Source: Chitinophagaceae bacterium (lineage in GTDB: Bacteria; Bacteroidota; Bacteroidia; Chitinophagales; Chitinophagaceae). Taken from it: DNA of 30,315 nucleotides. The notes beneath the pieces were generated by a model. That model was not told the DNA's origin, did not search any database, and saw only the letters and a list, made by a program, of their open reading frames with translations. The stretch's first letter is position 1; every line of letters starts with the position of its first letter. Of this stretch, positions 213 through 21,000 are shown piece by piece. The DNA lies in the NCBI GenBank assembly GCA_947447815.1, contig CANFLJ010000001.1, forward strand, positions 1 through 30,315. The letters are read 5' to 3'. A program made the position numbers and the translations under genes.

Positions 213-337
213 TTGTATTTATTTTTAATTGGTATTAGCATTGGCTGTTCCTGTATTCATTATCAAATTTTCAAATTTTCAAATCATCAAATTTGTATCC
301 TGCCTCCATGCATTTGTATTCATTTTTAATTTTTAAT
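213..337 (-). repeat. AATACA/TGTATT-delimited modular intergenic repeat cluster A
   Basis: TGTATT-separated blocks: (g)gctgttcc, cattatcaaattttcaaattttcaaatcatcaaatt, ctgcctc, catttttaatttttaat. The same blocks recur at other loci. Confidence 0.85.
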
Positions 338-475
338 GTTGTTGTTGAACAAAAACAATTTGAGGAGTTACAAAAAATAGCTGCTTCAAAGATTAGTCCT
401 CAAAAAAAGATCACCATTACTCAGGGTAAGGCTCATGCAAATAAAATGATAGCAGAATGGGCAAAAGGAAAGTAA
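338..475 (+). pseudogene. Possible C-terminal remnant of a small protein
   Basis: EQKQFEELQKIAASKISPQKKITITQGKAHANKMIAEWAKGK* reads like natural protein, but its 5' part runs into repeat cluster A with no convincing start. Confidence 0.25.
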
Positions 476-517
476 ATATCATAGAACAAGACTCAACTTC
501 AACGCTACCACTGCTAC

Positions 518-575
518 TTTATAAATCATCTATGCGAAGATTTGCATCATAGCTTGCGGACTTCTGTTTATAATA
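518..575 (-). repeat. Degenerate fragment of the structured element at 10880-11083
   Basis: tttataaatcatctatgcgaagatttgcatcatagc resembles the reverse complement of about 11010-11046 (tttatagataatctatgcgaagaattgcctcatagc). Confidence 0.7.
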
Positions 576-652
576 CATAAATATTACCAGAATTTTAGTG
601 CTATTGAAATAGAATTAAAACATATATTTTTGTTTGCTACAAGTTTAAAAGT

Positions 653-1324
653 ATGAATTTGAAAGTTTTTATCTCTACCCTTTTGTTATTTTTTGCTACC
701 TATTCTGTATTAGCTCAAAATAAGTACAATCAAAAAATTGATGGAATAATGTCAATAGACTTCCCTTCAAAACCCTTATCTGTAGAAAATACATATGAAT
801 CGGAATATTATCTGGATACTAAAGAATATAACCGATATGATTTTTTGATTGTTAAACTTGACTCTACTTTAGGCACCCCTACTCTTGCTAACTTAGACAT
901 AGTATATAAAGGATTTATTGATGGTGTATTAAATAAATTTAAAGGCAATCTTATATCACAAAAAAATATTGAGAAAGGGGGGTTAAAAGGGGTAGAATTA
1001 GAATTAACCACATTAATTAATAATGGGATATCTTATAACATATTTATCAGAGCATTTTTAATTAATAAAAAAATTTATAATGCTTCGTTCTGCTGTATGA
1101 CTGTTAATAAAATTAGGTTTATATCGGATAAAGACAACTACTTCAATTCTTTTAAAATACTGGTTCCCGAGAATACAATTATTCAATATAAATTAGATTC
1201 AAAGGGGGGATTTAAGAACTTGCTATTTCTTATTACACAGGCTTTAATAGGTTTCTTTCTCTTGGGAGGTATTGCTTATGCATTTAGTAAACTAGTAAAA
1301 TGGGTTATCAATTTATTAAAATAA
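653..1324 (+). CDS. Hypothetical exported protein with C-terminal membrane anchor
   Basis: 223-aa ORF with an N-terminal signal peptide (MNLKVFISTLLLFFATYSVLAQ) and a hydrophobic C-terminal helix. TATTTTTG (-7-like) at 625-632. Confidence 0.75.
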   Translation: MNLKVFISTLLLFFATYSVLAQNKYNQKIDGIMSIDFPSKPLSVENTYESEYYLDTKEYNRYDFLIVKLDSTLGTPTLANLDIVYKGFIDGVLNKFKGNLISQKNIEKGGLKGVELELTTLINNGISYNIFIRAFLINKKIYNASFCCMTVNKIRFISDKDNYFNSFKILVPENTIIQYKLDSKGGFKNLLFLITQALIGFFLLGGIAYAFSKLVKWVINLLK

Positions 1325-1334
1325 AAATGGGCAA

Positions 1335-1973
1335 TTAGAGGCTGTCTGTCTTTGTTTCTAATTCTTCTTTTGAGGAGGCGTTTTCCTGTTCCAGTATTTC
1401 TATAATTTCTTTGTATTTGTCGCAATTGTTGAGGGCTTTAAAAAAGCGGATTGCTCCAAATATAATTGCACCCCATGCCACTACGTAGGTTCCTCCACTG
1501 GTGGATACAGCGGAATAGGTAACGAAGGTTATTGCCAAACCTGCGGCACATACAAGTAATCCTCTTAGTTTGTCTGCTTCGTGCGATGCTAAGATATCTT
1601 TTGCTTTAGCTTCCATGGAGGATATCATGAGGGTGGCAGAATCTTTGTCTATTTCTCTTTGCAACAGTCCATTATATATTTCTTCGTTTGTGCTGCCGTT
1701 TCTTTTTTCATCAAAGATATAATTCCAGGTTGGGGCTTGCTGTTCGTTGGTTTCTGCTTCATTTATCCTTTCCTGATTTTCTTTCCGGTCTTCTTCTTTT
1801 ATATCTTCTACCGTACCAAATACATCGGTATTGAGATTGCGATCTATAAATTCTTCGTGCAATATGGTGAGGGCTTCTGCCGATAATTCATTTCCTTCTG
1901 TTTTGGCTAGATGAATTAACTGCTCATCGGACATTTGTTTGTAGTTGTCTTTTATTAAAGAGGGATCGAACAT
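1335..1973 (-). CDS. Hypothetical membrane protein (two C-terminal TM helices)
   Basis: 212 aa; acidic helical N-terminus, then LLVCAAGLAITFVTY and TYVVAWGAIIFGAIRFF hydrophobic segments. TATATTTG on the minus strand at 2012-2019. Confidence 0.8.
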   Translation of the reverse strand: MFDPSLIKDNYKQMSDEQLIHLAKTEGNELSAEALTILHEEFIDRNLNTDVFGTVEDIKEEDRKENQERINEAETNEQQAPTWNYIFDEKRNGSTNEEIYNGLLQREIDKDSATLMISSMEAKAKDILASHEADKLRGLLVCAAGLAITFVTYSAVSTSGGTYVVAWGAIIFGAIRFFKALNNCDKYKEIIEILEQENASSKEELETKTDSL

Positions 1974-2030
1974 AGTATTTGATTGAAGGTTTTAGATAAA
2001 AATTTGCGTTTCAAATATAGGAAAAGAGGG

Positions 2031-2165
2031 AATACAAATGTGATAATTTGATGATTTGAAAATTTGATAATGAATGCAAATACAAGGCAAGAAGGCAACG
2101 AGTAATACAAATGTGATAATTTAATAATTTGAAAATTTGATAATGAATGCAAATACAGGGAACAG
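2031..2165 (+). repeat. AATACA-delimited modular repeat cluster B
   Basis: Two near-identical aatacaaatgtgataattt(g/a)at(g/a)atttgaaaatttgataatgaatgcaaataca blocks separated by aggcaagaaggcaacgagt. Confidence 0.9.
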
Positions 2166-2185
2166 GCTTTACGTATTGGATTTAT

Positions 2186-2275
2186 AACCCTGGAAGGGTT
2201 AAATATTTATAGCCCGTGGTTTAAACCACGGGTTGAAAAATGACCCCCCTACCACCTACGACCCCAACGGTGTCG
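2186..2275. repeat. Composite REP-like palindrome unit 1
   Basis: AACCC-n5-GGGTT hairpin (2186-2200), perfect 20-bp palindrome CCCGTGGTTTAAACCACGGG (2213-2232), CGACCCCAACGGTGTCG (2259-2275). Confidence 0.75.
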
Positions 2276-2336
2276 AACTTGCTTTTTCTTTTATAGATCA
2301 TCCTTAATTAATAAATTGACCTCTCATGCTGTCTCT

Positions 2337-2481
2337 CTGTATTCATTTTTAATTTTTAATTTGTATTTGTATTGCCGTTCCAGCATTCATTATCAAATCT
2401 TCAAATCATCAAATTATCAAATTTGTATCCTGCCTCTGTATCAAATTGCCTTTCCCTTCTATCGGTTTTGCAATACAAATA
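2337..2481 (-). repeat. AATACA/TGTATT-delimited modular repeat cluster C
   Basis: tgtatt-cattttttaatttttaatt-tgtatt-tgtatt-gccgttcc...cattatcaaatcttcaaatcatcaaattatcaaatt-tgtatc-ctgcctc-tgtatc. Confidence 0.85.
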
Positions 2482-2597
2482 CATCGCTCCTCCCGTCAGC
2501 ACGCTCCTAAGTAGCATCTCCAGTCTATCAGGAAAATCAAAAGGCGCGTCAGACGGGTACTCCAACATCATCAATAAAAACACATCAATTGTATTAC

Positions 2598-2701
2598 AAC
2601 CCAGCATGGGTTCAACATCAATAGCCATAGGTGAAACCTATGGGGAATGGTGAAACCTATGGAAAATATAAATCAGGAATTTCCGACCCCGAATGGGGTC
2701 G
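2598..2701. repeat. Composite REP-like palindrome unit 2
   Basis: AACCC-n5-GGGTT (2598-2612), ATAG-CCATAGGT-GAA-ACCTATGG (hairpin 2625-2643), CGACCCC-GAAT-GGGGTCG (2684-2701). Same layout as unit 1. Confidence 0.75.
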
Positions 2702-2715: not shown

Positions 2716-4695
2716 TTATTCTAAAACATAAATTCCAATTGAAACTAAATAATTATAAGTAGAATTATAATAATCAGGGTTTCTTGTTGGGTCTTCAATA
2801 TCACCAAAAGGAACAACTATAACCATTCCTTGTCTTGCCCTTGTTAATAAAACTCTATAGGCATTTAATAGATATTTCTTTCTTTCGATCTTATGAATAT
2901 TCTGCCATTTATTTCCTACAAATGAAAATGTTTTCCATTCATTTTCTGAATATCTAAAATCTCCATCCCAAGTTACACAAGCCCAGTCAAGTTCTAATCC
3001 TTGAACCTGAAATTCAGTGGCAACATCTTCTAAATAATAAGACGATCTTACATCATCTTTATCATCTAAAAACCAGTTAACAGGATTCATAGGTGACTTT
3101 ACATCTATAGCTAATGGTTTCAATCTTTGAGCTTGAGACGAAACGACTATTCCATAGCGTTCATTACCTCTTGCTTTTTCTTTCAACCAAAGCTTTGCTT
3201 TAGTTAAGTCTCTAGTAATAACAATAGGATATTTTTTGTTGATTAAAGTAAATGTGTTCTTTGCGTTTACAATATCTAAATCTAAAATTTGTTTTACAAA
3301 TAGCGACACATTTTCAGCTCTATAAGATCGCATCGAAACGGCAAGATGTAAGTTCTCATCAAAATTGGTTATACATCTTTCTGTTATCTTATCAATGGAA
3401 GTTAAAGCATCATATTCTTTATCAGTAAGATTAGGAGAAATATGAACTTCCCAATGTGGAAATGAATCATAAATTGCATTCAGCCATTCTGAGATACCAG
3501 CTTCCCCTGTATTTATTTCTTGGCCACCTCCTACCAAGCATACAATTAATGCCCAATCTTTATGTCTATCTAAACAAGATATTAAGAATTCTGGTTCTGA
3601 ATAATGGAAATTAGGTTGATTCTTTTTTCGTCTCATGAAATCTATTGTCTGCTCTTTATTCCATGCTCTTTGCGCTTCATCAAAAATTGCTACATGATCA
3701 TATGGTTCTTTGGGGTCAGATAAATATGCATCTCTATAGTGATGAATAATTTGAATAAATGCTTTAACCCCTTCTCTTGCTGAACCTTTTGTAATTTTAT
3801 TGCCTTTCTCTTTTTCTCTTTTTACTTTATCCCTTGTTAATGCTTCTTGCAGAATAGCAACTAACGGCGCATTTCCTGAAAGAAATACACTTGAATTTCC
3901 TTTAGTTCTATCTAAATGAGTAGTTGCTACTTTTAATCCTACCAATGTTTTACCTGCTCCAGGTACGCCTGTTACAAAACAGATAACCTTTTTCTTAAAC
4001 TCTTTTGCATACTCTATTGTGTCAGAAATCGAATTGGTTGTTTTACTTAAATTTTTTGCTTCTGCATCGTTTCTAGTAATCTCTTCAACAGAATGTTCAT
4101 TATATAAATTAACAGCAGCTTCTATTATTGTAGGAGTTGGTGAATAGCTACCAGAAATAAATTGGTTGCCATCTATTTCTATTTTATTTGAAAAGAAAGT
4201 AACAGTATTCTGTATGACATTTTTAATTCCTAATTTATTCGTTTTTATTGGGATTATTAAGTTGTCTTTGTGTGATGTTGTAAAGATATTGATGGCAAAT
4301 TCATCAGCTTCTGTTGCAATTAAAATTGGAACTATAACTGCATCATGACTAGGTTTATGAAAGTTCTTCAAATCAAGTGCATAATCCCAAACCTGATTTA
4401 TGTTATGACTTAGATATTCTGTTTCTCCTACTTTAAATTCTAATACAAAGACGACATTTTCAATTACAAGTAAACAATCAATTCTTTTACCCATTCTTGG
4501 AATTGAAAACTCAAAGAAAATATTTCCACTAAACCCTTGTAGTTGATTTTTTAAAATAACAATCTGCTGTTTCCAAGCTTCGGTAGTATTTAAGTTGGTA
4601 TCAAATGTATTAGCAAGTGTTATTTCACCTATTATTTCTTCAATTGATTTAATAAGAAAATTATCTATGGAGTCTTTATAATAAGCGTTTAGCAT
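2716..4695 (-). CDS. DUF2075 (Schlafen group-3-like helicase) protein with N-terminal PD-(D/E)xK-like domain
   Basis: 659 aa. Walker A GVPGAGKT, Walker B IFDEAQR, TEFQVQGLELD, NAYRVLLTRARQG. N-terminal GKRIDCLLVIENVVFVLEFK. Confidence 0.85.
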   Translation of the reverse strand: MLNAYYKDSIDNFLIKSIEEIIGEITLANTFDTNLNTTEAWKQQIVILKNQLQGFSGNIFFEFSIPRMGKRIDCLLVIENVVFVLEFKVGETEYLSHNINQVWDYALDLKNFHKPSHDAVIVPILIATEADEFAINIFTTSHKDNLIIPIKTNKLGIKNVIQNTVTFFSNKIEIDGNQFISGSYSPTPTIIEAAVNLYNEHSVEEITRNDAEAKNLSKTTNSISDTIEYAKEFKKKVICFVTGVPGAGKTLVGLKVATTHLDRTKGNSSVFLSGNAPLVAILQEALTRDKVKREKEKGNKITKGSAREGVKAFIQIIHHYRDAYLSDPKEPYDHVAIFDEAQRAWNKEQTIDFMRRKKNQPNFHYSEPEFLISCLDRHKDWALIVCLVGGGQEINTGEAGISEWLNAIYDSFPHWEVHISPNLTDKEYDALTSIDKITERCITNFDENLHLAVSMRSYRAENVSLFVKQILDLDIVNAKNTFTLINKKYPIVITRDLTKAKLWLKEKARGNERYGIVVSSQAQRLKPLAIDVKSPMNPVNWFLDDKDDVRSSYYLEDVATEFQVQGLELDWACVTWDGDFRYSENEWKTFSFVGNKWQNIHKIERKKYLLNAYRVLLTRARQGMVIVVPFGDIEDPTRNPDYYNSTYNYLVSIGIYVLE

Positions 4696-7600
4696 TTATT
4701 GTTTATTTAAAGTATTAGTTCTTTCGAATGTTATTTCTGGCAAAATGATTAGTATTTCATTTTCAACATTTTCTTTTTTCCAGTAGATTATAAAATCAAT
4801 TTTCACTTCTTTTATATAAAACCCTTTAGCATTCATATCATTTATATAACCTTGAAACTGAGTTGAAAATTTAAGAATGCTATGACCCTTTTCTGTAACG
4901 CATTCTTGATTTTTATATATTAATCTATCACCGCCTTTTAAATTTTTTATTACCCATTGTTTATTTATGAAGTAATCTAACCACACGTCTTTATAGGATA
5001 CTTGTTTTAATATTTCTAAAGGTAGTGGATGGATGTTATTATTATTTTCAACTTTAATATTTTCAACTAAAATATTATCTAAATAATTGCCATTTAAATG
5101 TATTGTTAGATTTTGTTTTGCCCTTGTCATAGCTACATATAATAGGCGCTTATTTATATCAGTAGAGGTTGAATAATTATCTAGCAATAAAAATACATTA
5201 TCAAATTCTTTTCCTTTTGATTTATGAATAGTTGAAACAAATATTATATCGCCATTTGAATTAATAAAATCTTCAAGTTTTGATTCTCTTATATATATAT
5301 CAAGATCTGATTTGTATTTTCTTTTATTATTTGTAATTTCAAAATCTCTAATAATATTCAAACAAGTTTCATAATTAGTACTATTGAAGTATTTCTCTTT
5401 TAATTGTTTTTTAGCTTCAGCCCAATTTTCTTCATCTATAGTGAAAGTATTTTCTTCAAGTTTCAAAGCATGTATAAAAAATCTAATTTCTAAAAGATTC
5501 AGTAAATTAAAATTGTCATTTGTTTGAATTAGTTTGGCTTGATGTCCGTGTTTCAGAAGTAACCCAGTTACCTGTGCTGCTTCGTCGTTAGAGTGTGTAA
5601 GTATACATGTACTTCCTCTTAATTCAGTTGCAACTACATCTTTAACTAATGGTAAGATTAAGTTTGTATTTTTATATTTTACAATTTTAACATTGCCATT
5701 TTCTTCCATATTGGAAAAAACGGGAGTTTGTTTTAATCTATGACTAATTTGTTTAGCAAATTTTGTTGTGAATTCTACAAGATTTTTCTTACTTCTGAAA
5801 TTTTCGATCATTTCATAACTTACTGCCTTTTGCTCAATAATAAAATTTTCAAGATATTTAGAACTAGCTCCTCTAAACTCAAAAATATTTTGATCATCAT
5901 CTCCAACTGCAATAACTCTCATCTCTTCATTATTAGCAATTAATGTTTTAACTAATTCAAATTCGTTCCCATCCATATCCTGAGCTTCATCAATGACTAA
6001 GACATTTTTTGTAATGCCACTATGTTCTACTTCGCCATTCTTTATTTTTAAAATAGCATTTTCAATAATTTTACTTGATTTCTCTAGTGTTCCAACTTTT
6101 CCTAAGAGGTCAAAACAATATGAATGAAATGTTTTAATTTCAATAAAATTTGCAGCATTACCAATTAACTTAAGCAATCTTTTTTTAAATTCTGTTGCTG
6201 CACCCCTTGAAAATGTTACCATTAATAGCTGTTCATGTTTTACATCTTCCATTAACAATAAAGACGCTAGTTTATGAACTAATACCTTTGTTTTCCCACT
6301 ACCGGGTCCAGCAGCAACAACAATATATTTTGATTGAATATCATTGATTATTTTTAATTGTGTTGGAGACAATTCTCCAAATAGTTGTTTAAACTTAGAT
6401 GGTGTTATATTTCTAGTTATTTCACGTTGCTCATTTACATTAAAGTATTTTCCAAGAAAAGTTGAGTAGTTTAACTGAAAATAGTCATCTACAAACTTTA
6501 ATGCACTTGTATAATCTTCAATCATTTTTTTTGCATATGCACCAACAATATGAATTTGTTGGATTTTATTTTCATAAAATTTATTGAGATTTGTGTAATC
6601 TTCGTTTTTATATTGAATTTTATTATTATGTTCTAATCTCTCAATTGATAGTTTATTATATAACACTAAAAAACCACCTTCTATTTTAATTGCTTCAATT
6701 CTTGAAAGGAAAAACAATGCATTTTCTACATCTTCAATTGAAATATTTATTCTGAACAAAGATTGAGTTTTGTCATATTCCTCTTTAATTTCATGAACAG
6801 AAAATTCAATTAAAAATTCTTCTTTTTCATAATCTGTTTCTAAATATTCATTATTACATTTTTGAAATAATAAATCAACAATAAATCTTGCTAAAGTTTG
6901 TTGGCATTCCAATTTTTCCTGGAGTACTTTTTTAGGAACATTACTAATAATAACTATGTGATTCTTAGAATATTCTAAACTACTCTTTTTAACCCAGTTT
7001 TTGATTGCCCAAAAATTAAGTAAAGTTTTTATTTTGTTTGGTGTTACATCTTTACAGCCAAATTGTTCTATTTTTTCATTTAGTTCTTTAATATGAATTG
7101 TTTTTTCATTCTCATCAATTTCAGGTAATAAACTGTTTTCAATCTTTATAAAATTCTCTAATATATTTAGTGATTTGTTTTTCCCTTCTCCTCTTTTAAT
7201 AAATGCAGTTAAATCTTTAGTATCCGCTAATATTTTTTCTTCCCTTAATAAATTAATAACATTAATCACATCCTCTTTTACTATTCCTAAATGTTCGGAT
7301 ATATAATCAATTCTTGATTCAGCAACTTCGTCATTTGATTTACTTTTACTTTTACTTGAAAATAATTTTTTGATTATTCTTATTCCTTTTTCTTTTTGCT
7401 TTTCATCAAATTTATTAGAAGACATTATTTTTTCTATAGCTTCTTGTACATTTTTAGCTAATATACTTGAAGCATAAATTCTAGGCATATTTTGTCCTCT
7501 CTTAATATAACCTGCATCTTCTAACGCAGCAATAGCTGTTTTAACTCTTGTTTCAATCTCACCCAAAGAATCATCCCATCCAGCTTTCCTGGCAATCTCC

Positions 7601-10815: not shown

Positions 10816-10876
10816 TGTATCCTGTATTTGTATTCATTATCAAATTTTCAAATCATCAAATTATCACATTGGTATT
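10816..10876 (-). repeat. AATACA/TGTATT-delimited modular repeat cluster D
   Basis: tgtatcc-tgtatt-tgtatt-cattatcaaattttcaaatcatcaaattatcacatt-ggtatt. Confidence 0.85.
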
Positions 10877-11018: not shown

Positions 11019-11039
11019 GCAATTCTTCGCATAGATTAT

Positions 11040-11080
11040 CTATAAAGAAAAAGGCAAGTTCGACCCCGTTGGGGTCGTAG
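11040..11080. repeat. REP-like CGACCCC palindrome with flank, inverted relative to 2258-2298
   Basis: tctataaagaaaaaggcaagttCGACCCCGTTGGGGTCGt is close to the reverse complement of acgaccccaacggtgtcgaacttgctttttcttttataga. Confidence 0.8.
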
Positions 11081-11096
11081 GGGATCACCTGTTTGT

Positions 11097-11328
11097 TGTA
11101 TTTAAATACATTATCACATTTGTATTTTTAGTTTTTCTTTTTTTAGTCTTTAGTTTTTGAATTTGAATTCTTTTTACTTTTTATTTTTTACTTTGAAATG
11201 CATTCATTATCAAATTGCCTTGTATTCATTTTTAATTCTTAATTTTTAATTTGTATTGCTGTTCCTGTATTCATTATCAAATTTTCAAATCATCAAATTA
11301 TCACATTTGTATTTGCATTCTCCTTGTA
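11097..11328 (-). repeat. AATACA/TGTATT-delimited modular repeat cluster E
   Basis: Six TGTATT delimiters separating an 8-mer block, gctgttcc, catttttaattcttaatttttaatt and T-rich 7-mer blocks. Confidence 0.9.
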
Positions 11329-12310: not shown

Positions 12311-12438
12311 GATCTTCCTTTTTAATATGTTTAATATATTTTCTTTATTTATTTACTGGCAATTGCCTTTATAATGTGTACTGAACACTAATTTTTTCAA
12401 TTTTCATCGTCCATTTTCATCCTTCAGCTCATTTTTTC

Positions 12439-12669
12439 AATCCTCATGCTTCTTTTACCAATCCTCACGCATCTTTTACTAATCCTCACTCATCTTTTTT
12501 CAATCCTCACTCATCTTTTACCAATCCTCGCTCATCTTTTACTAATCCTCACTCATCTTTTATTAATCCTCACTCATCTTTTATTAATCCTCACTCATCT
12601 TTTTTCAATCCTCACTCATCTTTTACTAATCCTCGCTCATCTTTTACTAATCCTCACTCATCTTTTAAA
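12439..12669. repeat. Tandem array, 11 x 21 bp, consensus AATCCTCACTCATCTTTTACT
   Basis: Units start at 12439, 12460, 12481, 12502, 12523, 12544, 12565, 12586, 12607, 12628 and 12649, with no spacers. Confidence 0.97.
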
Positions 12670-12772: not shown

Positions 12773-12917
12773 CCCCTACACATAAAGCTAAAACTATGAA
12801 GGTTATATGTTTTCAAATTAGGACACATCATTCAATACCCCTTTTTTATAAGAAATAAAAGTGGTCATCCCATTAATGGTATACACATGTATTAATTTTT
12901 AATTGACCTTATGTCCT

Positions 12918-13044
12918 TGTATTACTCTTTGCCTTCGCAACCTTGCCTTGTATTTGTATTCTTTTTACTTTTTGTTTTTTACTTATTACTTTGAAATGTA
13001 TTCAGTATCAAATTATCACATTATCAAATTAGCAAATTGGTATT
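12918..13044 (-). repeat. AATACA/TGTATT-delimited modular repeat cluster F
   Basis: tgtatt-actctttgccttcgcaaccttgcct-tgtatt-tgtatt-ctttttactttttgttttttacttattact...-tgtatt-cagtatcaaattatcacattatcaaattagcaaatt-ggtatt. Confidence 0.85.
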
Positions 13045-13837: not shown

Positions 13838-16315
13838 TTGTTGTATACCATTCCCGAAATAGCTAAGATTATAAATGCGGAAATGCGCAGTGGCAGCCAT
13901 GCCGCGGGCAGCATACCCAGCATCAAAATAGATCATCTGCTGACCGATAGCCGCAAAATAGTACTTCCAAAGTCTTCCTTGTTCTTTGCGCTGAAAAGCA
14001 GCCGCAGAAGCGGCGAGGACTTTATAGCCGAAGTATACGAAAGAAGGGTAAGGCATTTTGTGGTGGAAAGAGATTTTGATTGCAGTCCTTTTCCGGAGGC
14101 CATCTTTCTGCTGGTAGATAATGTGCTGGAGGCCCTGCAGGACCTGGCGAGCCATCACCGTGCCTGCTTTGATTATCCGGTAATAGGTATTACGGGTAGT
14201 AATGGTAAAACCATTGTAAAAGAATGGCTGAACGAACTTCTGGAAGACGATTATAAGATAGTGCGTAGTCCGCGGAGCTACAACTCGCAGATTGGGGTGC
14301 CGCTGAGTGTATGGGAGATGAACCATCATCATACCCTGGCGATATTTGAGGCGGGAATATCCACCGTGAACGAGATGGCTACCCTACAATCGGTAATACG
14401 CCCTGGTATTGGCATACTGACCAATATAGGATCGGCACATGACGAGGGTTTTAAAGATACTAAAGAGAAACTGAAAGAGAAGATTAAACTATTTAGTGAG
14501 GCGGAATATGTGGTGGCGGAATATGGGCTGATACCGAAGGATGCGCTGAAGGCTAAGCAACTTACCTGGAGCTTTATAAATGAGGGTGCCGACCTGTTTA
14601 TAGCGGGCATAGAAAAACATGCTGCTAAAACAACGCTGGAGATACGCTATCAGGAACATCCATTTAAACTAACTATACCATTTACCGATAGTGCCTCTAT
14701 CAGCAATGCGGTAACCTGCATAACGCTGATGCTGCTACTGGGTATTGACTTTGCTACGATAGAATCGAGATTGCAATTGCTGAAGGGGGTAGAAATGCGT
14801 TTGCAACTGAAAACGGGGGTGAACAACTGCTTTCTGATAAATGATAGTTACAGCAACGATATATCCTCGCTGAGCATAGCGCTGGACTACCTGAAACAGC
14901 AATCGGGCAAGAATAAAACGACGGTGATACTCTCGGATATATTTCAGTCGGGGGTGGATGATATGGCCCTATACAAGCAGGTAGCGGAAGCCCTTGCGGA
15001 AAGGGGCATTGACCGACTGGTGGCCGTGGGTAAACATATCAATAAGGCGCTGTACCTTTTTCAGGCTGCGGTGGCTAAGGTGGAACTATACTCATCGACC
15101 GAGAACTTTCTGCGTCAGACTACTACCCACCACTTTAAGGATGAATACATATTGCTGAAGGGTGCGAGGGTTTTTGAGTTTGAAAGGATTGCGAATAAGC
15201 TGAGTCAGAAAGTACATCAGACGGTGCTGGAGATAAACCTGTCGGCACTGGTAAAGAACCTGAAAATATACCAGCAACACCTGTTGCCTTCTACCAAGCT
15301 GATGGCGATGGTAAAGGCCTATGGCTACGGTAGCGGCAGCGCGGAAGTGGCGAGGGTATTGCAATATCATAAAGTAGATTATCTGGCGGTGGCCTATGCG
15401 GATGAAGGAGTGGAGCTGCGTAAGGCGGGCATTAGTCTACCCATCATGGTGATGAATGCAGATGAAGAGGCCTTTGATGCGATGGTGGAAAATAACCTGG
15501 AGCCGGAGATCTATTCATTTAATATCTACAATGCTTTTCATGCTTACCTGGTAAGACAGGGGATCAAGCAACATCCTATTCATATAAAGATTAATACGGG
15601 CATGAACCGCCTGGGCTTTGAGCATCTGGATGCAGTGGAGCTGGGTAAACTTTTGATAGAAAGAAAGACGATGGTGGTGCAATCGGCGTTCAGTCACCTT
15701 GCTGCCAGCGAGGATGATGGCATGGATGAATTTACTGCTCATCAGACTTATCTGTTTGATGGTTTCTGTGGCACCTTGAAAAACATTATAGGCTATGGGT
15801 TTATAAAGCATGTGGCCAACTCGGCGGCTATCTTCCGTCACCCCGGCTACCAGTATAATATGGTGCGTCTGGGCATTGGACTATATGGTGTAGACTCGGC
15901 ATCGCTACCGGGTATCCGTCTGGAGAATGTGGCATCGCTGAAGACGACCATTGCTCAGATAAGGACTATCAGTGCGGGCGAAACAGTGGGCTACAACCGT
16001 AGGGGCACCGTGGAAAGAACCAGTAGAATTGCTACCATCCGTATTGGCTACGCCGACGGTTATAGCAGGCGAATGGGTAATGGCGCTGGGTTTGTGTATG
16101 TACGCAACAGAAGAGTACCGGTAATAGGGAATGTATGTATGGATATGACGATGATAGATGTAACGGATATTCCGGATATAGCGGAGGGTGATGTGGTGGA
16201 AGTATTTGGCCCGAACATTCCGGTAGAGGAGATAGCGCTGGAATGTGATACGATTGCCTACGAGATACTTACGGGGATTAGCCAGCGGGTGAAGCGGGTT
16301 TATATTGAGGAGTAG
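13838..16315 (+). CDS. murF-alr: Bifunctional UDP-MurNAc-tripeptide:D-Ala-D-Ala ligase / alanine racemase
   Basis: 825 aa. Mur ligase GITGSNGKT and INDSYS; Alr MVKAYGYGSG (PLP Lys), HIKINTGMNRLG, VGYNR, GNVCMDM. TACTTTTG at 13788-13795. Confidence 0.95.
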   Translation: MLYTIPEIAKIINAEMRSGSHAAGSIPSIKIDHLLTDSRKIVLPKSSLFFALKSSRRSGEDFIAEVYERRVRHFVVERDFDCSPFPEAIFLLVDNVLEALQDLASHHRACFDYPVIGITGSNGKTIVKEWLNELLEDDYKIVRSPRSYNSQIGVPLSVWEMNHHHTLAIFEAGISTVNEMATLQSVIRPGIGILTNIGSAHDEGFKDTKEKLKEKIKLFSEAEYVVAEYGLIPKDALKAKQLTWSFINEGADLFIAGIEKHAAKTTLEIRYQEHPFKLTIPFTDSASISNAVTCITLMLLLGIDFATIESRLQLLKGVEMRLQLKTGVNNCFLINDSYSNDISSLSIALDYLKQQSGKNKTTVILSDIFQSGVDDMALYKQVAEALAERGIDRLVAVGKHINKALYLFQAAVAKVELYSSTENFLRQTTTHHFKDEYILLKGARVFEFERIANKLSQKVHQTVLEINLSALVKNLKIYQQHLLPSTKLMAMVKAYGYGSGSAEVARVLQYHKVDYLAVAYADEGVELRKAGISLPIMVMNADEEAFDAMVENNLEPEIYSFNIYNAFHAYLVRQGIKQHPIHIKINTGMNRLGFEHLDAVELGKLLIERKTMVVQSAFSHLAASEDDGMDEFTAHQTYLFDGFCGTLKNIIGYGFIKHVANSAAIFRHPGYQYNMVRLGIGLYGVDSASLPGIRLENVASLKTTIAQIRTISAGETVGYNRRGTVERTSRIATIRIGYADGYSRRMGNGAGFVYVRNRRVPVIGNVCMDMTMIDVTDIPDIAEGDVVEVFGPNIPVEEIALECDTIAYEILTGISQRVKRVYIEE

Positions 16316-16317
16316 GT

Positions 16318-16540
16318 TAATGTGATAATTTGATGATTTGAAAATTTGATAATGAATACAAATACAGGGCAAAGAGGCAAGGAGTAATACAAGGAACAAA
16401 GGCAACGAGGCACATAGGTATACAGGAACAGCCAATACAAATTAAAAATTAAGAATTAAAAATAGAATACAAATACACGGTACAAAGGTTTGGGTTAATA
16501 CTGGCTTTTTTTTACTTTTTGTTTTTTACTTTTTACTTTA
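16318..16540 (+). repeat. AATACA-delimited modular repeat cluster G
   Basis: 8-mer block-aataca-aataca-gggcaaagaggcaaggagt-aataca-...-ggaacagcc-aataca-aattaaaaattaagaattaaaaatag-aataca-aataca; starts right after the alr stop. Confidence 0.9.
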
Positions 16541-16601
16541 TTAAACTACTTTGTTTGGGTATGGCTTTCTTTTTAAATCAACTTTTTCATACTACTTATA
16601 T

Positions 16602-19487
16602 ATGAGATACCGGATCTTTTTTATATTAACCTTTTTACTAATGATTGCTGTGGCTAGTGAAGCTCAGCAGTTTTATCGTACCAGTAAGCCTGCCAGACGG
16701 TGGGTGGATAGTGTATATAAATCGCTTAGCAAGGAGGAACGTATTGCTCAGCTGATGGTGGTGCGTGCACATAGTAATCTGGGACCTGAACATGTGGCGG
16801 AGCTTACTCAAATAATTAAAAAGTATAATGTAGGGGGACTCTGCTTTTTTCAGGGTGGACCGGTAAGAGAGGCTATGCTGACCAACTACTATCAGCAGCT
16901 TTCCAAGACCCCTCTGATGGTTTGTATAGATGGTGAATGGGGACTGGGTATGCGACTGGATAGTGTAGTGAACTTTCCTCGTCAGATGATGATTGGCGCT
17001 GTGGCTGATAGCAATATAGTATATGCCTTTGGTAAGGCCGTGGCCAGACAGTGTAAGCGACTGGGCATACAGGTGAACTATGCTCCGGTGACCGACATTA
17101 ACAACAACCCTGACAACCCCGTAATTAATGACAGAAGCTTTGGAGAGAACAAGTATAAAGTAGCCTCGTTTGCTACCGCCTACATGCGTGGGCTGCAGGA
17201 TGAAAATGTGATGGCCTGTGCAAAGCATTTTCCTGGACATGGTGATGTGGCCGTGGATAGTCACCTGGATCTTCCGGTAATGAATAAAACCCTTGAGCAG
17301 CTGGATTCGCTAGAGCTATACCCTTTCCGAAGGATCATTAATGCGGGTGTGGCGAGTGTGATGAATGCACACCTGTACATTCCATCGATAGATACTACCG
17401 CTAACAGGGCTACTTCGCTTTCGTACAAAAATGTAACGGGATTGCTGAAGAACGAACTGGGTTTTAAAGGCATAGCCGTAACAGATGGTCTGGAGATGAA
17501 GGGGATTGCGAAATTTTATCCTGCAGGCGAAGCTTCGGTACAATCGCTGATAGCAGGAAATGATATGCTTTGTCTGCCAGGCGACATAGAAGGCAGTATA
17601 CAAAAAACGATGCTGGCACTGAAGCACCGATTGATAAAAAGAAAGGAATTTAAGGCGAGAGTAAAGAAGATATTGCTGTCGAAATATAACCTGCAACTTA
17701 ATCATGTATCGCCAATAGATACCGCCCATATAACAGAAGATATTAATAAAAATACCGCCGACATCAATACCCTGATTGCCAACAATGCCATCACCCTGGT
17801 AAAGCAGGAAACTGCGGGTATACTTCCTGTAACTGCAAAGGATAAACTGGCGTATATAGCAATAGGTACAGGAGTTGACAATGCTATTATCCGGTACCTG
17901 AAAACGAAGGTCGGCATAACTGTATTTTACCTTAATACCACAACTGATTCTGTACGCAGTTCTTTATTGATAGACAGTATTGCAAATGCGGGTTATACTA
18001 AGATAATTGCAGGCATACATCATTATAGCAGGAGACCTGCTAATAACTTCGGTATTGCAGGACCGAATCTGTATGCCATACAGTTGCTGGCAAAAAAGAA
18101 GCATGCTATTATGGTGGCATTTGGTAATCCTTACTTCATCAGAAACTTTGCTGCGGCTGCCAATATCATGGCCTGCTATGAAGATGATGATATCACGCAG
18201 ACTGTTGCTGCACAGATGCTGCTGGGCTATCTGCAACCTAAGGGTACTCTGCCCGTATCGGTTAATAATACCCTGAAAGCAGGTACTGGCATTGTAAGCA
18301 GTGCACTTGCAGTGAATGAAACAGGGATAAATACCAGCGCTATAGATAGTATTGTACAAAATGGCCTGTTGGAAAAAGCATTTCCTGGCTGCAGCATAAT
18401 GGCTATTTATAAAGGCAAGATAGTACTGCATAAAACCTATGGATTTACCGACAATGAACATGCAGTGCCTGTAAGTAAAAACATGCTGTATGATGTTGCC
18501 TCTATAACCAAAGTAGCTGCTACCACCCTTGCAGTAATGAAGCTGTATGACGAACAGAAAATAAAGCTGGATGATACTTTGGGCATGTATCTTCCCCTTA
18601 CCCGTAATACAGAGATAGGAGGATTGACTATCCGCAACCTGATGATTCATCAGGCTGGACTGGTATCCTTTATTCCATTTTACAAAGAGCTAACCGATAC
18701 CCTGAAAGGAAAGGTAAAGCCTAGTTATTTTAGTAGCACCTATAGCACAGCATTTCCTATTCCTGTTGCTGAAAATATGTATCTGAGAAAGGACTGGAAC
18801 GATACGATGTATAGCAGAATAACCAACAGTAAACTGGTAAATAAAGGACGATATGTATATAGTGATAACGATTTTATACTGATGGGGAAAGTAGTAGAAA
18901 GCATTACCCATCAATCGCTGGAAGATTATGTAACAGAACAGTTTTATCTGCCGATGCAACTGAACAATATTGGTTATCATCCACTGGATAAATTTTATGC
19001 GCAAGCGATTGTTCCATCGGAAAAAGACAACTGGTTTAGAAAGCAAACTTTACAGGGTTATGTAAACGACGAGGGCGCTGCTATGATGGGTGGTGCAGCA
19101 GGACATGCAGGACTGTTTGCCAATGCCGAAAACCTTGGAATTTTGTTTCAGATGTTGCTGAATAAAGGCAGCTGGAATGGAAGAATCTACATACAACCTT
19201 CTACGGTAGATTTATTTACCGGATACCATAGTAAACAAAGCAGAAGGGGACTGGGATTTGATAAACCGGAATTACATAATCAGGGTAAGGATCATTATCC
19301 ATGCCCTTCAATATCGAGCGCTGCCTTTGGGCATACCGGATTTACGGGCACCTGTGTATGGGCCGATCCTGCGAAGGAACTGGTATTTGTATTTTTGAGT
19401 AACCGAACATATCCTGACAGGAAAAATACTTTATTGAATAGTATGAATATCAGGGGTAAGTTGCTGGAGGAGTGCTACAAGTTTTAG
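16602..19487 (+). CDS. Secreted GH3 beta-N-acetylglucosaminidase (NagZ-like) fused to a beta-lactamase-fold serine hydrolase
   Basis: ATG at 16602 gives signal peptide MRYRIFFILTFLLMIAVASEA. KHFPGHGDVAVDSH, VTDGLEM; SxxK in ASITK, YSD, GHTGFTG. Confidence 0.92.
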   Translation: MRYRIFFILTFLLMIAVASEAQQFYRTSKPARRWVDSVYKSLSKEERIAQLMVVRAHSNLGPEHVAELTQIIKKYNVGGLCFFQGGPVREAMLTNYYQQLSKTPLMVCIDGEWGLGMRLDSVVNFPRQMMIGAVADSNIVYAFGKAVARQCKRLGIQVNYAPVTDINNNPDNPVINDRSFGENKYKVASFATAYMRGLQDENVMACAKHFPGHGDVAVDSHLDLPVMNKTLEQLDSLELYPFRRIINAGVASVMNAHLYIPSIDTTANRATSLSYKNVTGLLKNELGFKGIAVTDGLEMKGIAKFYPAGEASVQSLIAGNDMLCLPGDIEGSIQKTMLALKHRLIKRKEFKARVKKILLSKYNLQLNHVSPIDTAHITEDINKNTADINTLIANNAITLVKQETAGILPVTAKDKLAYIAIGTGVDNAIIRYLKTKVGITVFYLNTTTDSVRSSLLIDSIANAGYTKIIAGIHHYSRRPANNFGIAGPNLYAIQLLAKKKHAIMVAFGNPYFIRNFAAAANIMACYEDDDITQTVAAQMLLGYLQPKGTLPVSVNNTLKAGTGIVSSALAVNETGINTSAIDSIVQNGLLEKAFPGCSIMAIYKGKIVLHKTYGFTDNEHAVPVSKNMLYDVASITKVAATTLAVMKLYDEQKIKLDDTLGMYLPLTRNTEIGGLTIRNLMIHQAGLVSFIPFYKELTDTLKGKVKPSYFSSTYSTAFPIPVAENMYLRKDWNDTMYSRITNSKLVNKGRYVYSDNDFILMGKVVESITHQSLEDYVTEQFYLPMQLNNIGYHPLDKFYAQAIVPSEKDNWFRKQTLQGYVNDEGAAMMGGAAGHAGLFANAENLGILFQMLLNKGSWNGRIYIQPSTVDLFTGYHSKQSRRGLGFDKPELHNQGKDHYPCPSISSAAFGHTGFTGTCVWADPAKELVFVFLSNRTYPDRKNTLLNSMNIRGKLLEECYKF

Positions 19488-19494
19488 AACGTGA

Positions 19495-19630
19495 ACAAAG
19501 GCAAAGAGGCAATAGGCAAAGAGGCAAGAGGAATACAAATACAAGGAGGTAGGAGGTAGGAGGCAGGAGAATACAAATTAGCTAATTTGCTGATGTGATA
19601 ATGTGCTAATTAATACAAGGTAAGAGGCAA
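19495..19630 (+). repeat. AATACA-delimited modular repeat cluster H
   Basis: ggcaaagaggcaataggcaaagaggcaagagg-aataca-aataca-aggaggtaggaggtaggaggcaggag-aataca-aattagctaatttgctgatgtgataatgtgctaatt-aataca. Confidence 0.85.
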
Positions 19631-19798
19631 GCGGAATTCAGACTATTTTGATCCTGCTTTATTCTTAATGCTATACTCTTAACACGCTGTTTTCCCTGAT
19701 AAATAGCCGAATAAAAAGTATATCCCTTCATTGTTGATTAATGGATACCTTATATACTCTGAGCATTATTTTATATAGTTTTCATTTTAAGATTTTGT

Positions 19799-19934
19799 CT
19801 CATAGCCGGCAGGCTCTGTTCATACACCACCACTGCTGACTCCTTGTCTTACCCACTAAAGTGGGCTCAACATTTTGGCTATCGCCAAAACCGGACCGAC
19901 TGATGTGGCTTGTGTATGAACGGGTGACAACGAG
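19799..19934 (-). repeat. About 140-bp structured dispersed element, copy 2 (inverted)
   Basis: Reverse complement aligns to 10880-11018 at roughly 90% by eye. Confidence 0.85.
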
Positions 19935-20070
19935 TAGGACAGCTTAAATAATACTTTGAACATGCCTTATTCGTAGTTCTTTTAGTGTTATAAATTCATT
20001 TCCCAAAACAACACTTCATTAATAAAGTAAATAATTCTGTAATATCGGCTATCGATTATGTAGTTGAGTG

Positions 20071-20922
20071 TTATTTATTTTTGAGGAGGTTTACTACATC
20101 TACTGTAAGTCCGGCTGAAATGCAATTGGTTAATGCATCTACTTTTTTCCTAGACACAAAAGAACTAAGTGTTGCAGTACCAATAAGATGGAAATTTTTT
20201 ACTCCTAAAGATATCATAGCAGTAGGTTCAAAGGTTACCAGATAATCGTTGCTATTCACATTCATTTTGAAGTAGTCCTTTTCGTTTGTTGTATAATTAT
20301 TGTCTGCAAATTGGTAGTTGAATGCGGAGATTTTTCCTACTAAAGCAAGCGAAATATTTGGGATAGGATTTATATAAAAACCTGGTTGAATAAAGAAGGT
20401 ATTGATGGAACCATTCTGATGTCGTTCATATTTATTAGTATCGCTGGAAAAACCGCTTTCATTCATTGAAAACTGACCTATGCTATACCCGGCATATGTA
20501 CTAAAAAAGATTGTTTTTGTTTTGTTTACAGGAGTATAATATCCCAACATAAACTCCTGAGTACTTCTGCTGGTGTGCACATTAGAAGAATCGTAATAGT
20601 TGTACTCTACAGGCTTAAATAATCCACCATTACTCCGATAATAAATAGTATGATCGCTCATATAATTGTAACTATACCCAATAGCCCAATGATTGCTAAT
20701 TGCATAAGCTGTTTTAAATGCTAGGCCATATATGGTGGCTTTGCCTTGTGATCCCAAGGAGCCTTCGGCACTTAATTTAGATTCTCCTTTCTTTTCTAAT
20801 ACTGGAATATTAGGAGTAGGCACATAGTATAAAAACCTGTGGGAGGAACAGGCTGTTAAGGACAATATCAATGACAGGATGATTGTACTCTTTATTTTAT
20901 CAGCTAAAAGGTATAAAGACAT
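20071..20922 (-). CDS. Hypothetical lipoprotein, beta-strand rich
   Basis: 283 aa. Lipobox-like IILSLILSLTAC; alternating aromatic/Gly strands. Confidence 0.75.
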   Translation of the reverse strand: MSLYLLADKIKSTIILSLILSLTACSSHRFLYYVPTPNIPVLEKKGESKLSAEGSLGSQGKATIYGLAFKTAYAISNHWAIGYSYNYMSDHTIYYRSNGGLFKPVEYNYYDSSNVHTSRSTQEFMLGYYTPVNKTKTIFFSTYAGYSIGQFSMNESGFSSDTNKYERHQNGSINTFFIQPGFYINPIPNISLALVGKISAFNYQFADNNYTTNEKDYFKMNVNSNDYLVTFEPTAMISLGVKNFHLIGTATLSSFVSRKKVDALTNCISAGLTVDVVNLLKNK

Positions 20923-20939
20923 AGATATAATTCAGGTGC

Positions 20940-21000
20940 AATATAAATACAAATTTGATGATTTGATATTTTGATGATTTGATAATGTATACAAATACAG
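20940..21000 (+). repeat. AATACA-delimited modular repeat cluster I
   Basis: aataca-aatttgatgatttgatattttgatgatttgataatg-tataca-aataca. Confidence 0.8.

What the first reader, a model, noticed from the sequence alone, without database searches (positions are those of the whole stretch)
213..21000. Combinatorial AATACA-delimited module arrays in nine intergenic regions
Seen: clusters at about 213-337, 2031-2165, 2337-2481, 10816-10876, 11097-11328, 12918-13044, 16318-16540, 19495-19630 and 20940-21000. Each is built from a small library of blocks joined by AATACA/TGTATT, which is often doubled. The blocks include an 8-mer block (aatgtgataatttgatgatttgaaaatttgataatg), ggaacagc(c), aattaaaaattaagaattaaaaat, ggcaaaga repeats, ggaggta repeats and aaaagta-type repeats. 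The same blocks occur in different orders and numbers. Two clusters start within about 10 nt of a stop codon (alr, GH3). Inference: the layout suggests modules inserted at an AATACA target with duplication, or added iteratively by a trans-acting enzyme (recombinase, RAYT-like transposase or RT), rather than simple slippage. A role as an RNA element or a nucleoid-protein binding site is an alternative. I do not know a named system with this grammar.
Basis: partly seen in the sequence, partly recalled or inferred. Interest (0 to 1): 0.75.

Follow-up and report, generated by a model that had tools for sequence, protein, structure and literature searches.

The report
AATACA-punctuated mosaic intergenic repeat arrays
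This freshwater Chitinophagaceae genome, and a few related genera, fill the DNA just after many genes with chains of about 35-base repeat blocks that each end in the same six letters, AATACA; I found no published description of this repeat class, it turns over fast, and what makes it is unknown.

Summary
In the window's genome (a 2.1-Mb lake MAG, family Chitinophagaceae), same-strand AATACA clusters number 92, against about 10 for control hexamers. In intergenic DNA there are 78, against 0.6-13 in Markov simulations.

Each unit is a body of about four degenerate 7-8-nt repeats (32-39 nt, at least 10-15 families) that ends in AATACA. Bodies keep one orientation relative to the hexamer. Arrays have a preferred 5'-to-3' order. 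93% are intergenic, and most start at the stop codon of a co-oriented upstream gene.

The same hexamer punctuates different module sets in other Chitinophagaceae genera, including cultured strains. It was not found in 25 other families of the order. Between two congeneric species, arrays persist at orthologous sites but differ by whole modules bounded by AATACA.

RT genes are missing from the array-rich genomes. RAYT-type genes show no association and have their own hairpin REPs. Mismatch repair genes are present.

Best reading (about 50%): a self-propagating, probably neutral mosaic repeat class, remodelled by slippage and by exchange at the shared hexamer. A dedicated enzyme or a 3'-UTR or DNA-binding role is not excluded. 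The closest analogues are STAR elements, STRR/LSSR and BIME/BOX mosaics. I rate it a new variant of a known kind.

The parts
214..337 (-). Array 1 (read on the minus strand): E-type module, degenerate delimiters, A-type octamer block (266-296), short GGAACAGCC module. It lies in a divergent region between a SAM riboswitch and ORF 653-1324.
   Evidence: TGTATT at 214, 252, 315; A block; sequence
2031..2165 (+). Array 2: A block, short GGCAA module, A block, GGAACAGG. It is antisense to the flanking minus-strand genes.
   Evidence: AATACA at 2031, 2079, 2104, 2152; A blocks at 2042-2072 and 2115-2145
2338..2483 (-). Array 3: A block (2388-2418), GGAACGGC, doubled delimiter, E-type module. A forward doubled AATACA sits at 2472-2483. 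With array 2 it brackets REP-like hairpins at 2180-2290 in convergent orientation.
   Evidence: TGTATT at 2338, 2362, 2368; AATACA at 2472, 2478
10816..10876 (-). Array 4: doubled delimiter plus one A block (10835-10865), identical in sequence to the A blocks of arrays 2 and 5.
   Evidence: TGTATT at 10823, 10829
11097..11328 (-). Array 5: A block, GGAACAGC, E module, short module, AAAGTAAA-type and ACTAAAGA-type modules. It lies downstream of the terminator of gene 11381-12310 and in that gene's sense orientation.
   Evidence: TGTATT at 11097, 11121, 11221, 11252, 11266, 11308
12888..13044 (-). Array 6: A-type (GCTAAT variant) block, AAAGTAAA-type module, doubled delimiter, GGCAA module, short modules.
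   Evidence: TGTATT at 12888, 12918, 12949, 12955, 12997
16316..16545 (+). Array 7: starts 3 nt after the alr/murF stop codon. A block, doubled delimiter, GGCAA, GGCAC/GGAACAGCC, E module, doubled delimiter, then an inverted AAAGTAAA-type module. The whole array is absent from the orthologous spacer in three congeneric genomes.
   Evidence: AATACA at 16355, 16361, 16386, 16434, 16466, 16472
19495..19635 (+). Array 8: starts about 9 nt after the GH3/beta-lactamase-domain gene stop. GGCAA module, doubled delimiter, GGAGGTA module, A-type (GCTAAT) module, GGTAAGAGGCAA.
   Evidence: AATACA at 19532, 19538, 19570, 19612
20940..21034 (+). Array 9: A-type block between two delimiters, then one non-periodic segment and a third delimiter. 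It is antisense to both flanking genes.
   Evidence: AATACA at 20946, 20994, 21029

Best explanation
These are members of a lineage-restricted class of non-coding mosaic repeats.

Anatomy (shown):
- The basic unit is a body of about four degenerate 7-8-nt tandem repeats, 32-39 nt long, that ends in the invariant hexamer AATACA.
- This genome holds at least 10-15 body families. Examples are GATAATTT, GGCAAAGA, GGCACAAA, GGAGnnAG, AATTAAAA, ACTAAAGA, AAGTAAAA, CGTGAGT, ATTAGCGG, GAACGCTT and a palindromic GTTACTGG type.
- Units are joined head to tail, all in one orientation, into arrays with a median span of 93 nt and 4 delimiters.
- The arrays fill intergenic DNA. Most often they run from the stop codon of a co-oriented upstream gene outward.

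How it most likely works (inferred):
- Arrays are made and remodelled without a dedicated enzyme.
- Replication slippage changes the number of octamers per body (0 to 5; 0 gives the doubled hexamer) and duplicates one- or two-module blocks.
- Whole units are copied or exchanged between arrays by template switching or ectopic conversion at the shared hexamer. This gives module-sized gains and losses bounded by AATACA.
- The repeats are probably selfish or neutral. Selection confines them to gene 3' flanks. The purine-rich strand (A 41%, G 25%, T 23%, C 11%) is preferred in the sense direction when they lie directly behind a stop codon.
For: Architecture and enrichment.
Orientation lock: AATACA lies within 24 nt 3' of about 45-90% of body copies in most families, and TGTATT almost never does.
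Array polarity: A and G types come first, F and O types last. X to O is 13:0 and X to F is 14:2.
Location: 86 of 92 arrays are intergenic in a genome that is about 84% coding. Convergent spacers outnumber divergent ones 17 to 5.
Stop-codon adjacency: 34 of 49 against 22% for convergent downstream genes, p = 4e-5. A G002 sample replicated it, 12 of 16 against 3 of 8.
Slippage signs: autocorrelation at lags 7 and 8, gap lengths of 0-1, 8-19 and 24-31 nt besides the main 32-39 peak, and higher-order tandem copies in G000, G002, G119 and G159.
Turnover: at one orthologous site with 95% identical flanks the centre of the array is completely different. At the other syntenic sites the arrays share terminal modules and differ by whole modules. 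The alr-GH3 array exists only in G000.
No candidate enzyme fits: RT was not found in G000 or G002. Y1_Tnp is not associated. MutS and MutL are intact.
No RNA structure on either strand.
Same-contig copies are slightly more alike for 3 of 7 families tested.
Against: The mechanism is inferred; no event was observed. Four points argue against it.
- Body length has a sharp mode at about four units rather than the broad distribution that neutral slippage would give.
- The same hexamer is kept across genera whose module sets differ, and module consensus sequences are kept between species that are only about 80% identical in genes. Both facts point to a conserved recognition step or to selection.
- The distribution among 150 genera is patchy (3 clearly positive). 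This would fit a mobile accessory factor.
- The sense-oriented abutment to stop codons suggests a link to transcripts that a purely DNA-level neutral model explains only through an added selection argument.
Confidence: 0.5

Rival explanations
1. A dedicated trans-acting machinery recognises AATACA and adds or removes about 40-nt units. It could be an unknown recombinase, nuclease-ligase or polymerase, possibly horizontally mobile.
For: The hexamer is invariant across genera with different module sets. Unit length has a sharp mode. The hexamer sits at the 3' end of each body, like a shared recognition tail. The phyletic distribution is patchy. Indels between species are module-sized and bounded by AATACA.
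Against: No candidate was found. RT was not found in G000 or G002. Y1_Tnp is unassociated and has its own REPs. Bodies lack terminal inverted repeats or hairpins. The empty site lacks AATACA. Only two enzyme families were tested, so this evidence is weak.
Confidence: 0.15
2. The arrays are functional cis-elements. One version is a 3'-UTR or insulator element: the sense strand gives purine-rich, unstructured RNA, and the antisense strand gives C-rich, G-poor, unstructured RNA that would load Rho and stop antisense or read-through transcription. The other version is a set of protein-binding sites on DNA, with AATACA spaced about 39-42 bp apart (close to four helical turns).
For: Arrays abut stop codons in the sense orientation. 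Strand composition is asymmetric, A41 G25 T23 C11. Neither strand has structure. Delimiter spacing peaks at 39-42 nt start to start. Arrays persist at orthologous sites in two species. That C-rich, G-poor, unstructured RNA is the known Rho loading signal is general knowledge and was not tested here.
Against: Module content at orthologous sites is not conserved. Whole arrays are present or absent between species. The orientation bias is only moderate: 23 sense against 15 antisense in co-directional spacers in G000, and 11 against 4 in the G002 sample. Most genera of the family do without the arrays. The bodies are too diverse for one sequence-specific binder. A crude terminator scan was uninformative.
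Confidence: 0.2
3. The arrays are REP/BIME-type elements mobilised by a RAYT (Y1 HUH transposase).
For: A Y1_Tnp gene exists in G000 (C101:3528-3872), and an array lies 2.3 kb away. One module family (the GTTACTGG type) is palindromic and closes arrays.
Against: The RAYT is flanked on both sides by a different hairpin repeat, the same kind as at window 2180-2290. Y1_Tnp was not found in G002, which has the most arrays, and occurs in 62% of family genomes regardless of arrays. Most modules have no hairpin.
Confidence: 0.03
4. The pattern is low-complexity, AT-rich intergenic DNA or independent local microsatellite slippage, and AATACA recurs by chance.
For: The genome is AT-rich (36% GC) and has many other short tandem repeats.
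Against: Enrichment over same-composition hexamers and over Markov models up to order 5 is 6- to 100-fold. The backward-read control gave 0-3 matches where the pattern gave 18-110. Near-identical 32-nt modules recur at many loci and in another species.
Confidence: 0.02

Closest known systems
STAR elements of Staphylococcus aureus (interspersed intergenic direct repeats; Purves et al. 2012, PMC3532100)
   Same: A short direct repeat punctuates recurring spacers of about 40 bp in intergenic DNA. Loci expand and contract. Locations differ between species. Function and propagation mechanism are unknown.
   Different: The STAR repeat is a 14-bp GC-rich consensus; here it is a 6-nt AT-rich hexamer. 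STAR spacers are locus-specific; here the 'spacers' come from at least 10-15 dispersed families, each with 7-8-nt internal periodicity, orientation lock and a preferred order. The phylum is different.
STRR / long simple sequence repeats of 5-11 nt (cyanobacterial heptamers; Mrazek 2007 as summarised in PMC4679880) and TAACTGA heptamer repeats with 'assemblages of heptamer repeats' in some Bacteroidetes (MacGregor 2015, PMC4679880)
   Same: Short (7-8 nt) tandem units lie in intergenic DNA. Several unit types can sit side by side. Close relatives lack the repeats at the same spacer. The phyletic distribution is sporadic.
   Different: Here the tandem runs are capped at about four units, have degenerate positions that are copied faithfully between loci, and are separated by an invariant hexamer. 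TAACTGA repeats are absent from G000. TAACTGA repeats sit just upstream of start codons, whereas these arrays sit just downstream of stop codons.
BIME (E. coli mosaic REP elements) and BOX elements (S. pneumoniae boxA-boxB(n)-boxC)
   Same: They are intergenic mosaics built from a small library of short modules, in variable number and with a preferred order. They are commonest in gene 3' flanks.
   Different: BIME and BOX modules are hairpin-forming and, for REP, are mobilised by RAYT. These modules are unstructured, all in direct orientation, and not linked to RAYT.
CRISPR arrays
   Same: A short repeat alternates with segments of about 32-36 nt.
   Different: The repeat is only 6 nt. The 'spacers' are recurring, internally periodic families, not unique foreign sequences. 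There are hundreds of small arrays in gene 3' flanks rather than one or a few loci. This is a resemblance of layout only.

Membership tests
REP/BIME (RAYT-mobilised) | The unit is an imperfect palindrome that forms a stable hairpin. | tested here: not met
   Five arrays were folded, two of them on both strands. Six of the seven z-scores lay between -0.3 and +2.1, and one was -1.8. Only the terminal GTTACTGG-type module is palindromic.
REP/BIME (RAYT-mobilised) | Co-occurrence with a cognate RAYT gene that is flanked by the same repeats. | tested here: not met
   Y1_Tnp was not found in G002 (81 pattern hits) and occurs in 93 of 151 family genomes. The G000 RAYT is flanked by other hairpin repeats.
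Simple tandem repeats (STRR/LSSR) | Head-to-tail copies of one 5-11-nt unit. | tested here: met
   This holds within each module. Autocorrelation is 0.42 at lags 7 and 8 against a 0.30 baseline. TRF finds periods 7, 8, 14-16.
Simple tandem repeats (STRR/LSSR) | The array is explained by local slippage of that unit alone. | tested here: not met
   An invariant hexamer lies between runs. The same degenerate 32-nt module sequences recur at many loci and in G002. Arrays mix many unit types in a preferred order.
STAR-like interspersed direct repeats | A short direct repeat recurs at about 40-60-bp intervals with recurring intervening sequence, in intergenic DNA. | tested here: met
   Start-to-start spacing is 38-45 nt. 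86 of 92 arrays are intergenic.
STAR-like interspersed direct repeats | The 14-bp GC-rich STAR consensus, in a staphylococcal host. | tested here: not met
   The delimiter is AATACA and the host is Chitinophagaceae. This is an analogue, not a member.
Transposon or MITE with target-site duplication | The empty site holds a single copy of the target, and the element has terminal inverted repeats. | tested here: not met
   The alr-GH3 spacer of G001, G002 and a JGI contig has neither an array nor AATACA. Bodies have no inverted termini.
CRISPR | Repeats of 23-55 nt with unique spacers, next to cas genes. | tested here: not met
   The repeat is 6 nt and the segments belong to recurring families. 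Cas genes were not searched for.
Retroelement-generated repeats (RT-dependent) | A reverse transcriptase gene in every carrier genome. | tested here: not met
   PF00078 was not found in G000 or in G002, which is 100% complete.

The most novel reading that the evidence does not exclude
A still unidentified accessory enzyme system, spread horizontally among a few Chitinophagaceae genera, recognises the hexamer AATACA. It adds, copies or excises about 40-nt octamer-repeat units directly behind stop codons. That would be a new kind of templated DNA-addition or micro-mobile-element system. The cultured carriers Niastella populi and strain LWZ2-11 would allow it to be tested.
Probability: 0.15. Interest if true: 0.9.

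Novelty: new variant of a known kind. Interest (0 to 1): 0.6.

Why it matters
Bacterial intergenic repeats such as REP/BIME, BOX, STAR, STRR and CRISPR have repeatedly led to new biology, and for several of them the way they spread is still unknown. This class has an unusually explicit grammar. One invariant hexamer is kept across genera. Module libraries are specific to each lineage and share a 7-8-nt inner period and a set length. Orientation is fixed, order is preferred, and arrays abut stop codons. Turnover is fast enough that flanks 95% identical enclose unrelated arrays.

That combination makes the propagation question testable, because at least two carriers are cultured: Niastella populi CCTCC AB 208238 and Chitinophagaceae bacterium LWZ2-11. 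On the practical side, the arrays make up about 1% of the genome and about 6% of intergenic DNA. They are hypervariable strain markers, and they can mislead annotation of small ORFs and non-coding RNAs in Chitinophagaceae MAGs.

Tried and rejected
1. RAYT/Y1 transposase link: rejected.
2. Reverse transcriptase link: rejected for G000 and G002.
3. Loss of mismatch repair as the cause of slippage: rejected. MutS1 and MutL are present in G002, G159 and G119.
4. Structured RNA: rejected. Rfam finds only a SAM-I/IV riboswitch in the window, and the arrays fold no better than shuffles.
6. Strain-level variants:
   - The look-up of encoding contigs gave only a 1.8-kb contig that ends at the array.
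   - A metagenome scan with a conserved GH3 20-mer found one congeneric contig without the array and no same-species contig.
7. Arrays as assembly breakpoints: not supported. 2.2% of contig ends carry them, against 3.0% expected.
8. Orientation by replichore: the AATACA strand is the G-rich strand of its contig 60:26. This is confounded with gene strand (r = 0.77). On the 1.77-Mb contig of G159 both orientations are interleaved. Not resolved.
9. Simple terminator scan around arrays: uninformative.
10. Local homogenisation: only weak. It was significant for 3 of 7 families tested.
11. Doubled-delimiter scan of all GTDB species: outside Chitinophagaceae the hits were Asn-Thr coding repeats or (AATACA)n microsatellites. 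Two MAG contigs labelled Bdellovibrionales and Chlamydiales were exceptions and may be mis-binned.
12. Literature searches for a named description found none.
13. Earlier notes of this scan: none on this grammar.


Full report
WHAT THE WINDOW IS. The window is contig C1 of a 2.1-Mb, 335-contig MAG that is 73% complete and has 36% GC. Public runs that hold it are lake and freshwater metagenomes. Its congener G002 is the record 'uncultured Chitinophagaceae bacterium Umea1_bin-0343', so the family is Chitinophagaceae. Genes around the arrays include a murF-alr fusion (13838-16315), a GH3/beta-lactamase-domain protein (16551-19487), a LuxR-type regulator and several proteins with no family match.

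CHECK OF THE OBSERVATION. The listed blocks are all present.

The clustering is not a by-product of AT-richness:
- Same-strand clusters of at least 3 AATACA within 70 nt number 92 genome-wide. The median for the 29 other hexamers of the same composition is about 10. For clusters of at least 4 the figures are 50 against about 2.
- Consecutive delimiters are separated by 0 nt 75 times (controls 3.9), by 1 nt 39 times (3.7) and by 32-39 nt 113 times (about 20).
- In the 339 kb of intergenic DNA, AATACA occurs 1279 times against 465 under an order-1 Markov model. Clusters number 78 against 0.6, 4 and 13 for orders 1, 3 and 5. Doubled delimiters number 70 against 0.4-2.
- In other genomes the backward-read control pattern gave 0-3 matches where the real pattern gave 18-110.

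ANATOMY.
- Segments between delimiters show sequence autocorrelation at lags 7 and 8 (0.42 against a 0.30 baseline). Every module, not only the '8-mer block', is therefore a short run of degenerate 7-8-nt units, usually about four of them.
- Clustering gives at least 10-15 families with 9-38 delimiter-bounded copies each. Fuzzy scans give up to 103 copies.
- Bodies are orientation-locked to the hexamer. AATACA lies within 24 nt downstream of about 45-90% of copies in most families, and TGTATT almost never does. The 3' hexamer is commoner than the 5' one, for example 70 against 23 of 103 for the GATAATTT family. The natural unit is therefore 'body plus 3' AATACA'. The flanks of the hexamer are only weakly biased, G before it and A after it.
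- Arrays have polarity. GATAATTT and AAGTAAAA types tend to be first. ACTAAAGA and the palindromic GTTACTGG type tend to be last (X to O 13:0, X to F 14:2).
- On the AATACA strand the bodies are A 41%, G 25%, T 23%, C 11%.
- Neither strand folds better than shuffled controls.
- Arrays have a median of 4 delimiters and a median span of 93 nt. They make up about 1% of the genome and are not enriched at contig ends.

WHERE THE ARRAYS SIT.
- 86 of 92 arrays are intergenic, although about 84% of the genome is coding by a simple ORF call.
- Convergent spacers are favoured over divergent ones, 17 to 5. The gene on the 5' side is co-oriented 49 times against 25.
- The first AATACA lies within 55 nt, about one module, of the stop codon of a co-oriented upstream gene in 34 of 49 cases. 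The figure for a convergent downstream gene is 22% (Mann-Whitney p = 4e-5). Often the stop codon is the first triplet of the array or lies inside its first unit.
- A sample of 20 G002 loci replicates this: 12 of 16 against 3 of 8, and 11 sense against 4 antisense in co-directional spacers.
- The AATACA strand is the G-rich strand of its contig 60:26. That is confounded with gene strand.

DISTRIBUTION.
- A scan for three AATACA at 30-40-nt spacing over 151 genomes from 150 genera of the family gave 18 hits in G000 and 81 in G002 (same genus). It gave 37 in G159, rising to 110 against 0 in the control with a wider pattern, and 10 in G119. G043 and G062 each had single arrays. The other genomes had 0-2, apart from two with unrelated tandem repeats.
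- G159 shares an exact module with the record 'Chitinophagaceae bacterium LWZ2-11', an isolate.
- The grammar also occurs in Niastella populi CCTCC AB 208238, in an uncultured Niastella and in several Chitinophagaceae MAGs.
- None of 112 genomes from 25 other families of the order has it.
- These genera use the same hexamer but largely different bodies. Examples are AAGTACGA, GGTGTAAG/GTTTAGGG, AGGAATTGGTAATT, CATATAAG, GTTACAGG and GGCGAAAG. All have the same 7-8-nt period and a length of about 32 nt. Only the GAAAATTT block is shared.
- That block also occurs alone in many other genera and families of the order, without AATACA. There it often forms inverted pairs between co-directional genes.

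DYNAMICS.
- The alr-GH3 spacer is 77 nt with no array and no AATACA in G001 and G002. It is equally short in a congeneric JGI contig. Genes in these genomes are about 76-82% identical to those of G000.
- I fetched 20 array-bearing loci of G002. Six had both flanks adjacent on one G000 contig, and the five aligned here all carry an array or a remnant in both species. The content differs by whole modules that end at AATACA, and the terminal modules are often shared.
- At G000:C14:11186-11427 the flanks are 95% identical. The centre, however, is one forward GCTAAT-type module in G000 and five reverse GAAAAT-type modules in G002, between a conserved inverted pair of GGAG-type modules.
- At G002:C172 a two-module unit is repeated four times. 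G000:C170 has only a remnant without delimiters.
- G119 and G159 show long alternations of two module types.
- Arrays are therefore long-lived at their sites but remodelled much faster than their flanks, both by tandem duplication and by replacement of modules.

TESTS OF CANDIDATE MACHINERIES.
- Reverse transcriptase (PF00078) was not found in G000 or in G002, which is 100% complete.
- Y1_Tnp (RAYT/IS200 type) was not found in G002. It occurs in 93 of 151 family genomes irrespective of arrays. The G000 copy (C101:3528-3872) is flanked on both sides by hairpin repeats of the kind seen at window 2180-2290, not by AATACA arrays.
- MutS1 and MutL are present in G002, G159 and G119.
- No other enzyme family was tested. 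An unbiased gene-content comparison was not possible with the tools.

INTERPRETATION.
Shown: a dispersed, orientation-locked, polar, hexamer-punctuated mosaic repeat class that lies in gene 3' flanks, is restricted to a few Chitinophagaceae genera and turns over quickly.

Inferred (about 50%): it propagates without a dedicated enzyme. Slippage changes unit number and duplicates blocks. Template switching or ectopic conversion at the shared hexamer moves whole units. Selection limits where, and in which orientation, arrays are tolerated.

Four facts argue for something more specific:
- the sharp four-unit length mode;
- the conservation of the hexamer across genera with different modules;
- the conservation of module consensus between species;
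- the patchy phyletic pattern.

I therefore keep two rivals open. One is a dedicated AATACA-recognising machinery (about 15%). The other is a cis-function, as a 3'-UTR or insulator element or as phased binding sites (about 20%). RAYT/REP (3%) and chance (2%) are essentially excluded.

COMPARISON WITH KNOWN SYSTEMS.
- In layout the arrays work most like STAR elements of staphylococci: a short direct repeat, recurring spacers of about 40 bp, intergenic position, expansion and contraction, and unknown mechanism (PMC3532100).
- In unit size they resemble STRR/LSSR and the heptamer assemblages noted in some Bacteroidetes (PMC4679880).
- In mosaic character they resemble BIME and BOX elements.
- They are a member of none of these. 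The delimiter, the module families, the lack of hairpins, the position behind stop codons and the host lineage all differ. TAACTGA repeats are absent.
- Searches of the paper library found no description of this grammar.
- I rate it a new variant of a known kind (interspersed or mosaic intergenic repeats), with interest 0.6.

Noticed in passing
window 24-132 (-): SAM-I/IV riboswitch aptamer (RF01725, 47.7 bits, above the gathering score) at the left end of the contig. The gene it controls lies off the window.
   Followed up: no
window 21094-21279: A repeat of about 185 nt with more than 30 copies in G002 and at least 8 in G001, at 79-92% identity. It may be a MITE or a small RNA gene family of this genus.
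   Followed up: no
window 10880-11020 and 19800-19934: An inverted pair of an element of about 140 nt. Copies of about 105 nt also occur in G002 (C284, C137, C337, C147) at 85-91% identity.
   Followed up: no
window 2180-2290, 2670-2700, 11053-11090; G000:C101:3200-3530 and 3990-4200: GC-rich hairpin (REP-like) repeats. The same kind of repeat flanks the only strong Y1_Tnp (RAYT-like) gene of the MAG on both sides, so these hairpins, not the AATACA arrays, are the likely RAYT substrates.
   Followed up: partly
window 12419-12667; genome-wide in G000: The 21-nt tandem array (11.9 copies) is one of a large separate class. TRF reports 96 period-21 rows and many at 42, 63, 84 and 126 nt elsewhere in the MAG.
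   Followed up: partly
L011 (G009:C3:2609800-2611800), L014 (G018:C39:11000-12400), L012/L020 (G013), L013 (G023): In other Chitinophagaceae genera, and in one other family of the order, the GAAAATTT/GATAATTT octamer block occurs without AATACA. It often forms an inverted pair 30-55 nt apart between co-directional genes, with one copy ending right at a start codon. G013 has long pure octamer runs. G023 joins several octamer types without a delimiter.
   Followed up: partly
L061 (CAZSTB010000013.1, labelled Bdellovibrionales) and L110 (CAWAUW010000005.1, labelled Chlamydiales): Two MAG contigs outside Bacteroidota carry AATACA-punctuated modules, one with a GAGAACAGAG module like that of G000. 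This may be mis-binning of Chitinophagaceae DNA or real transfer.
   Followed up: no
G000:C14:9987-12626 vs G002:C29: The flanks of this array are 95% identical between the two species, whereas other genes are about 75-82% identical. The region is either unusually conserved or recently exchanged.
   Followed up: no
window 2716-10478: An AT-rich operon (22-33% GC; other first-stage notes flag it as a candidate defence operon) is bracketed by arrays 2-3 on the left and arrays 4-5 on the right, together with the REP-like hairpins. Arrays may mark island borders.
   Followed up: no
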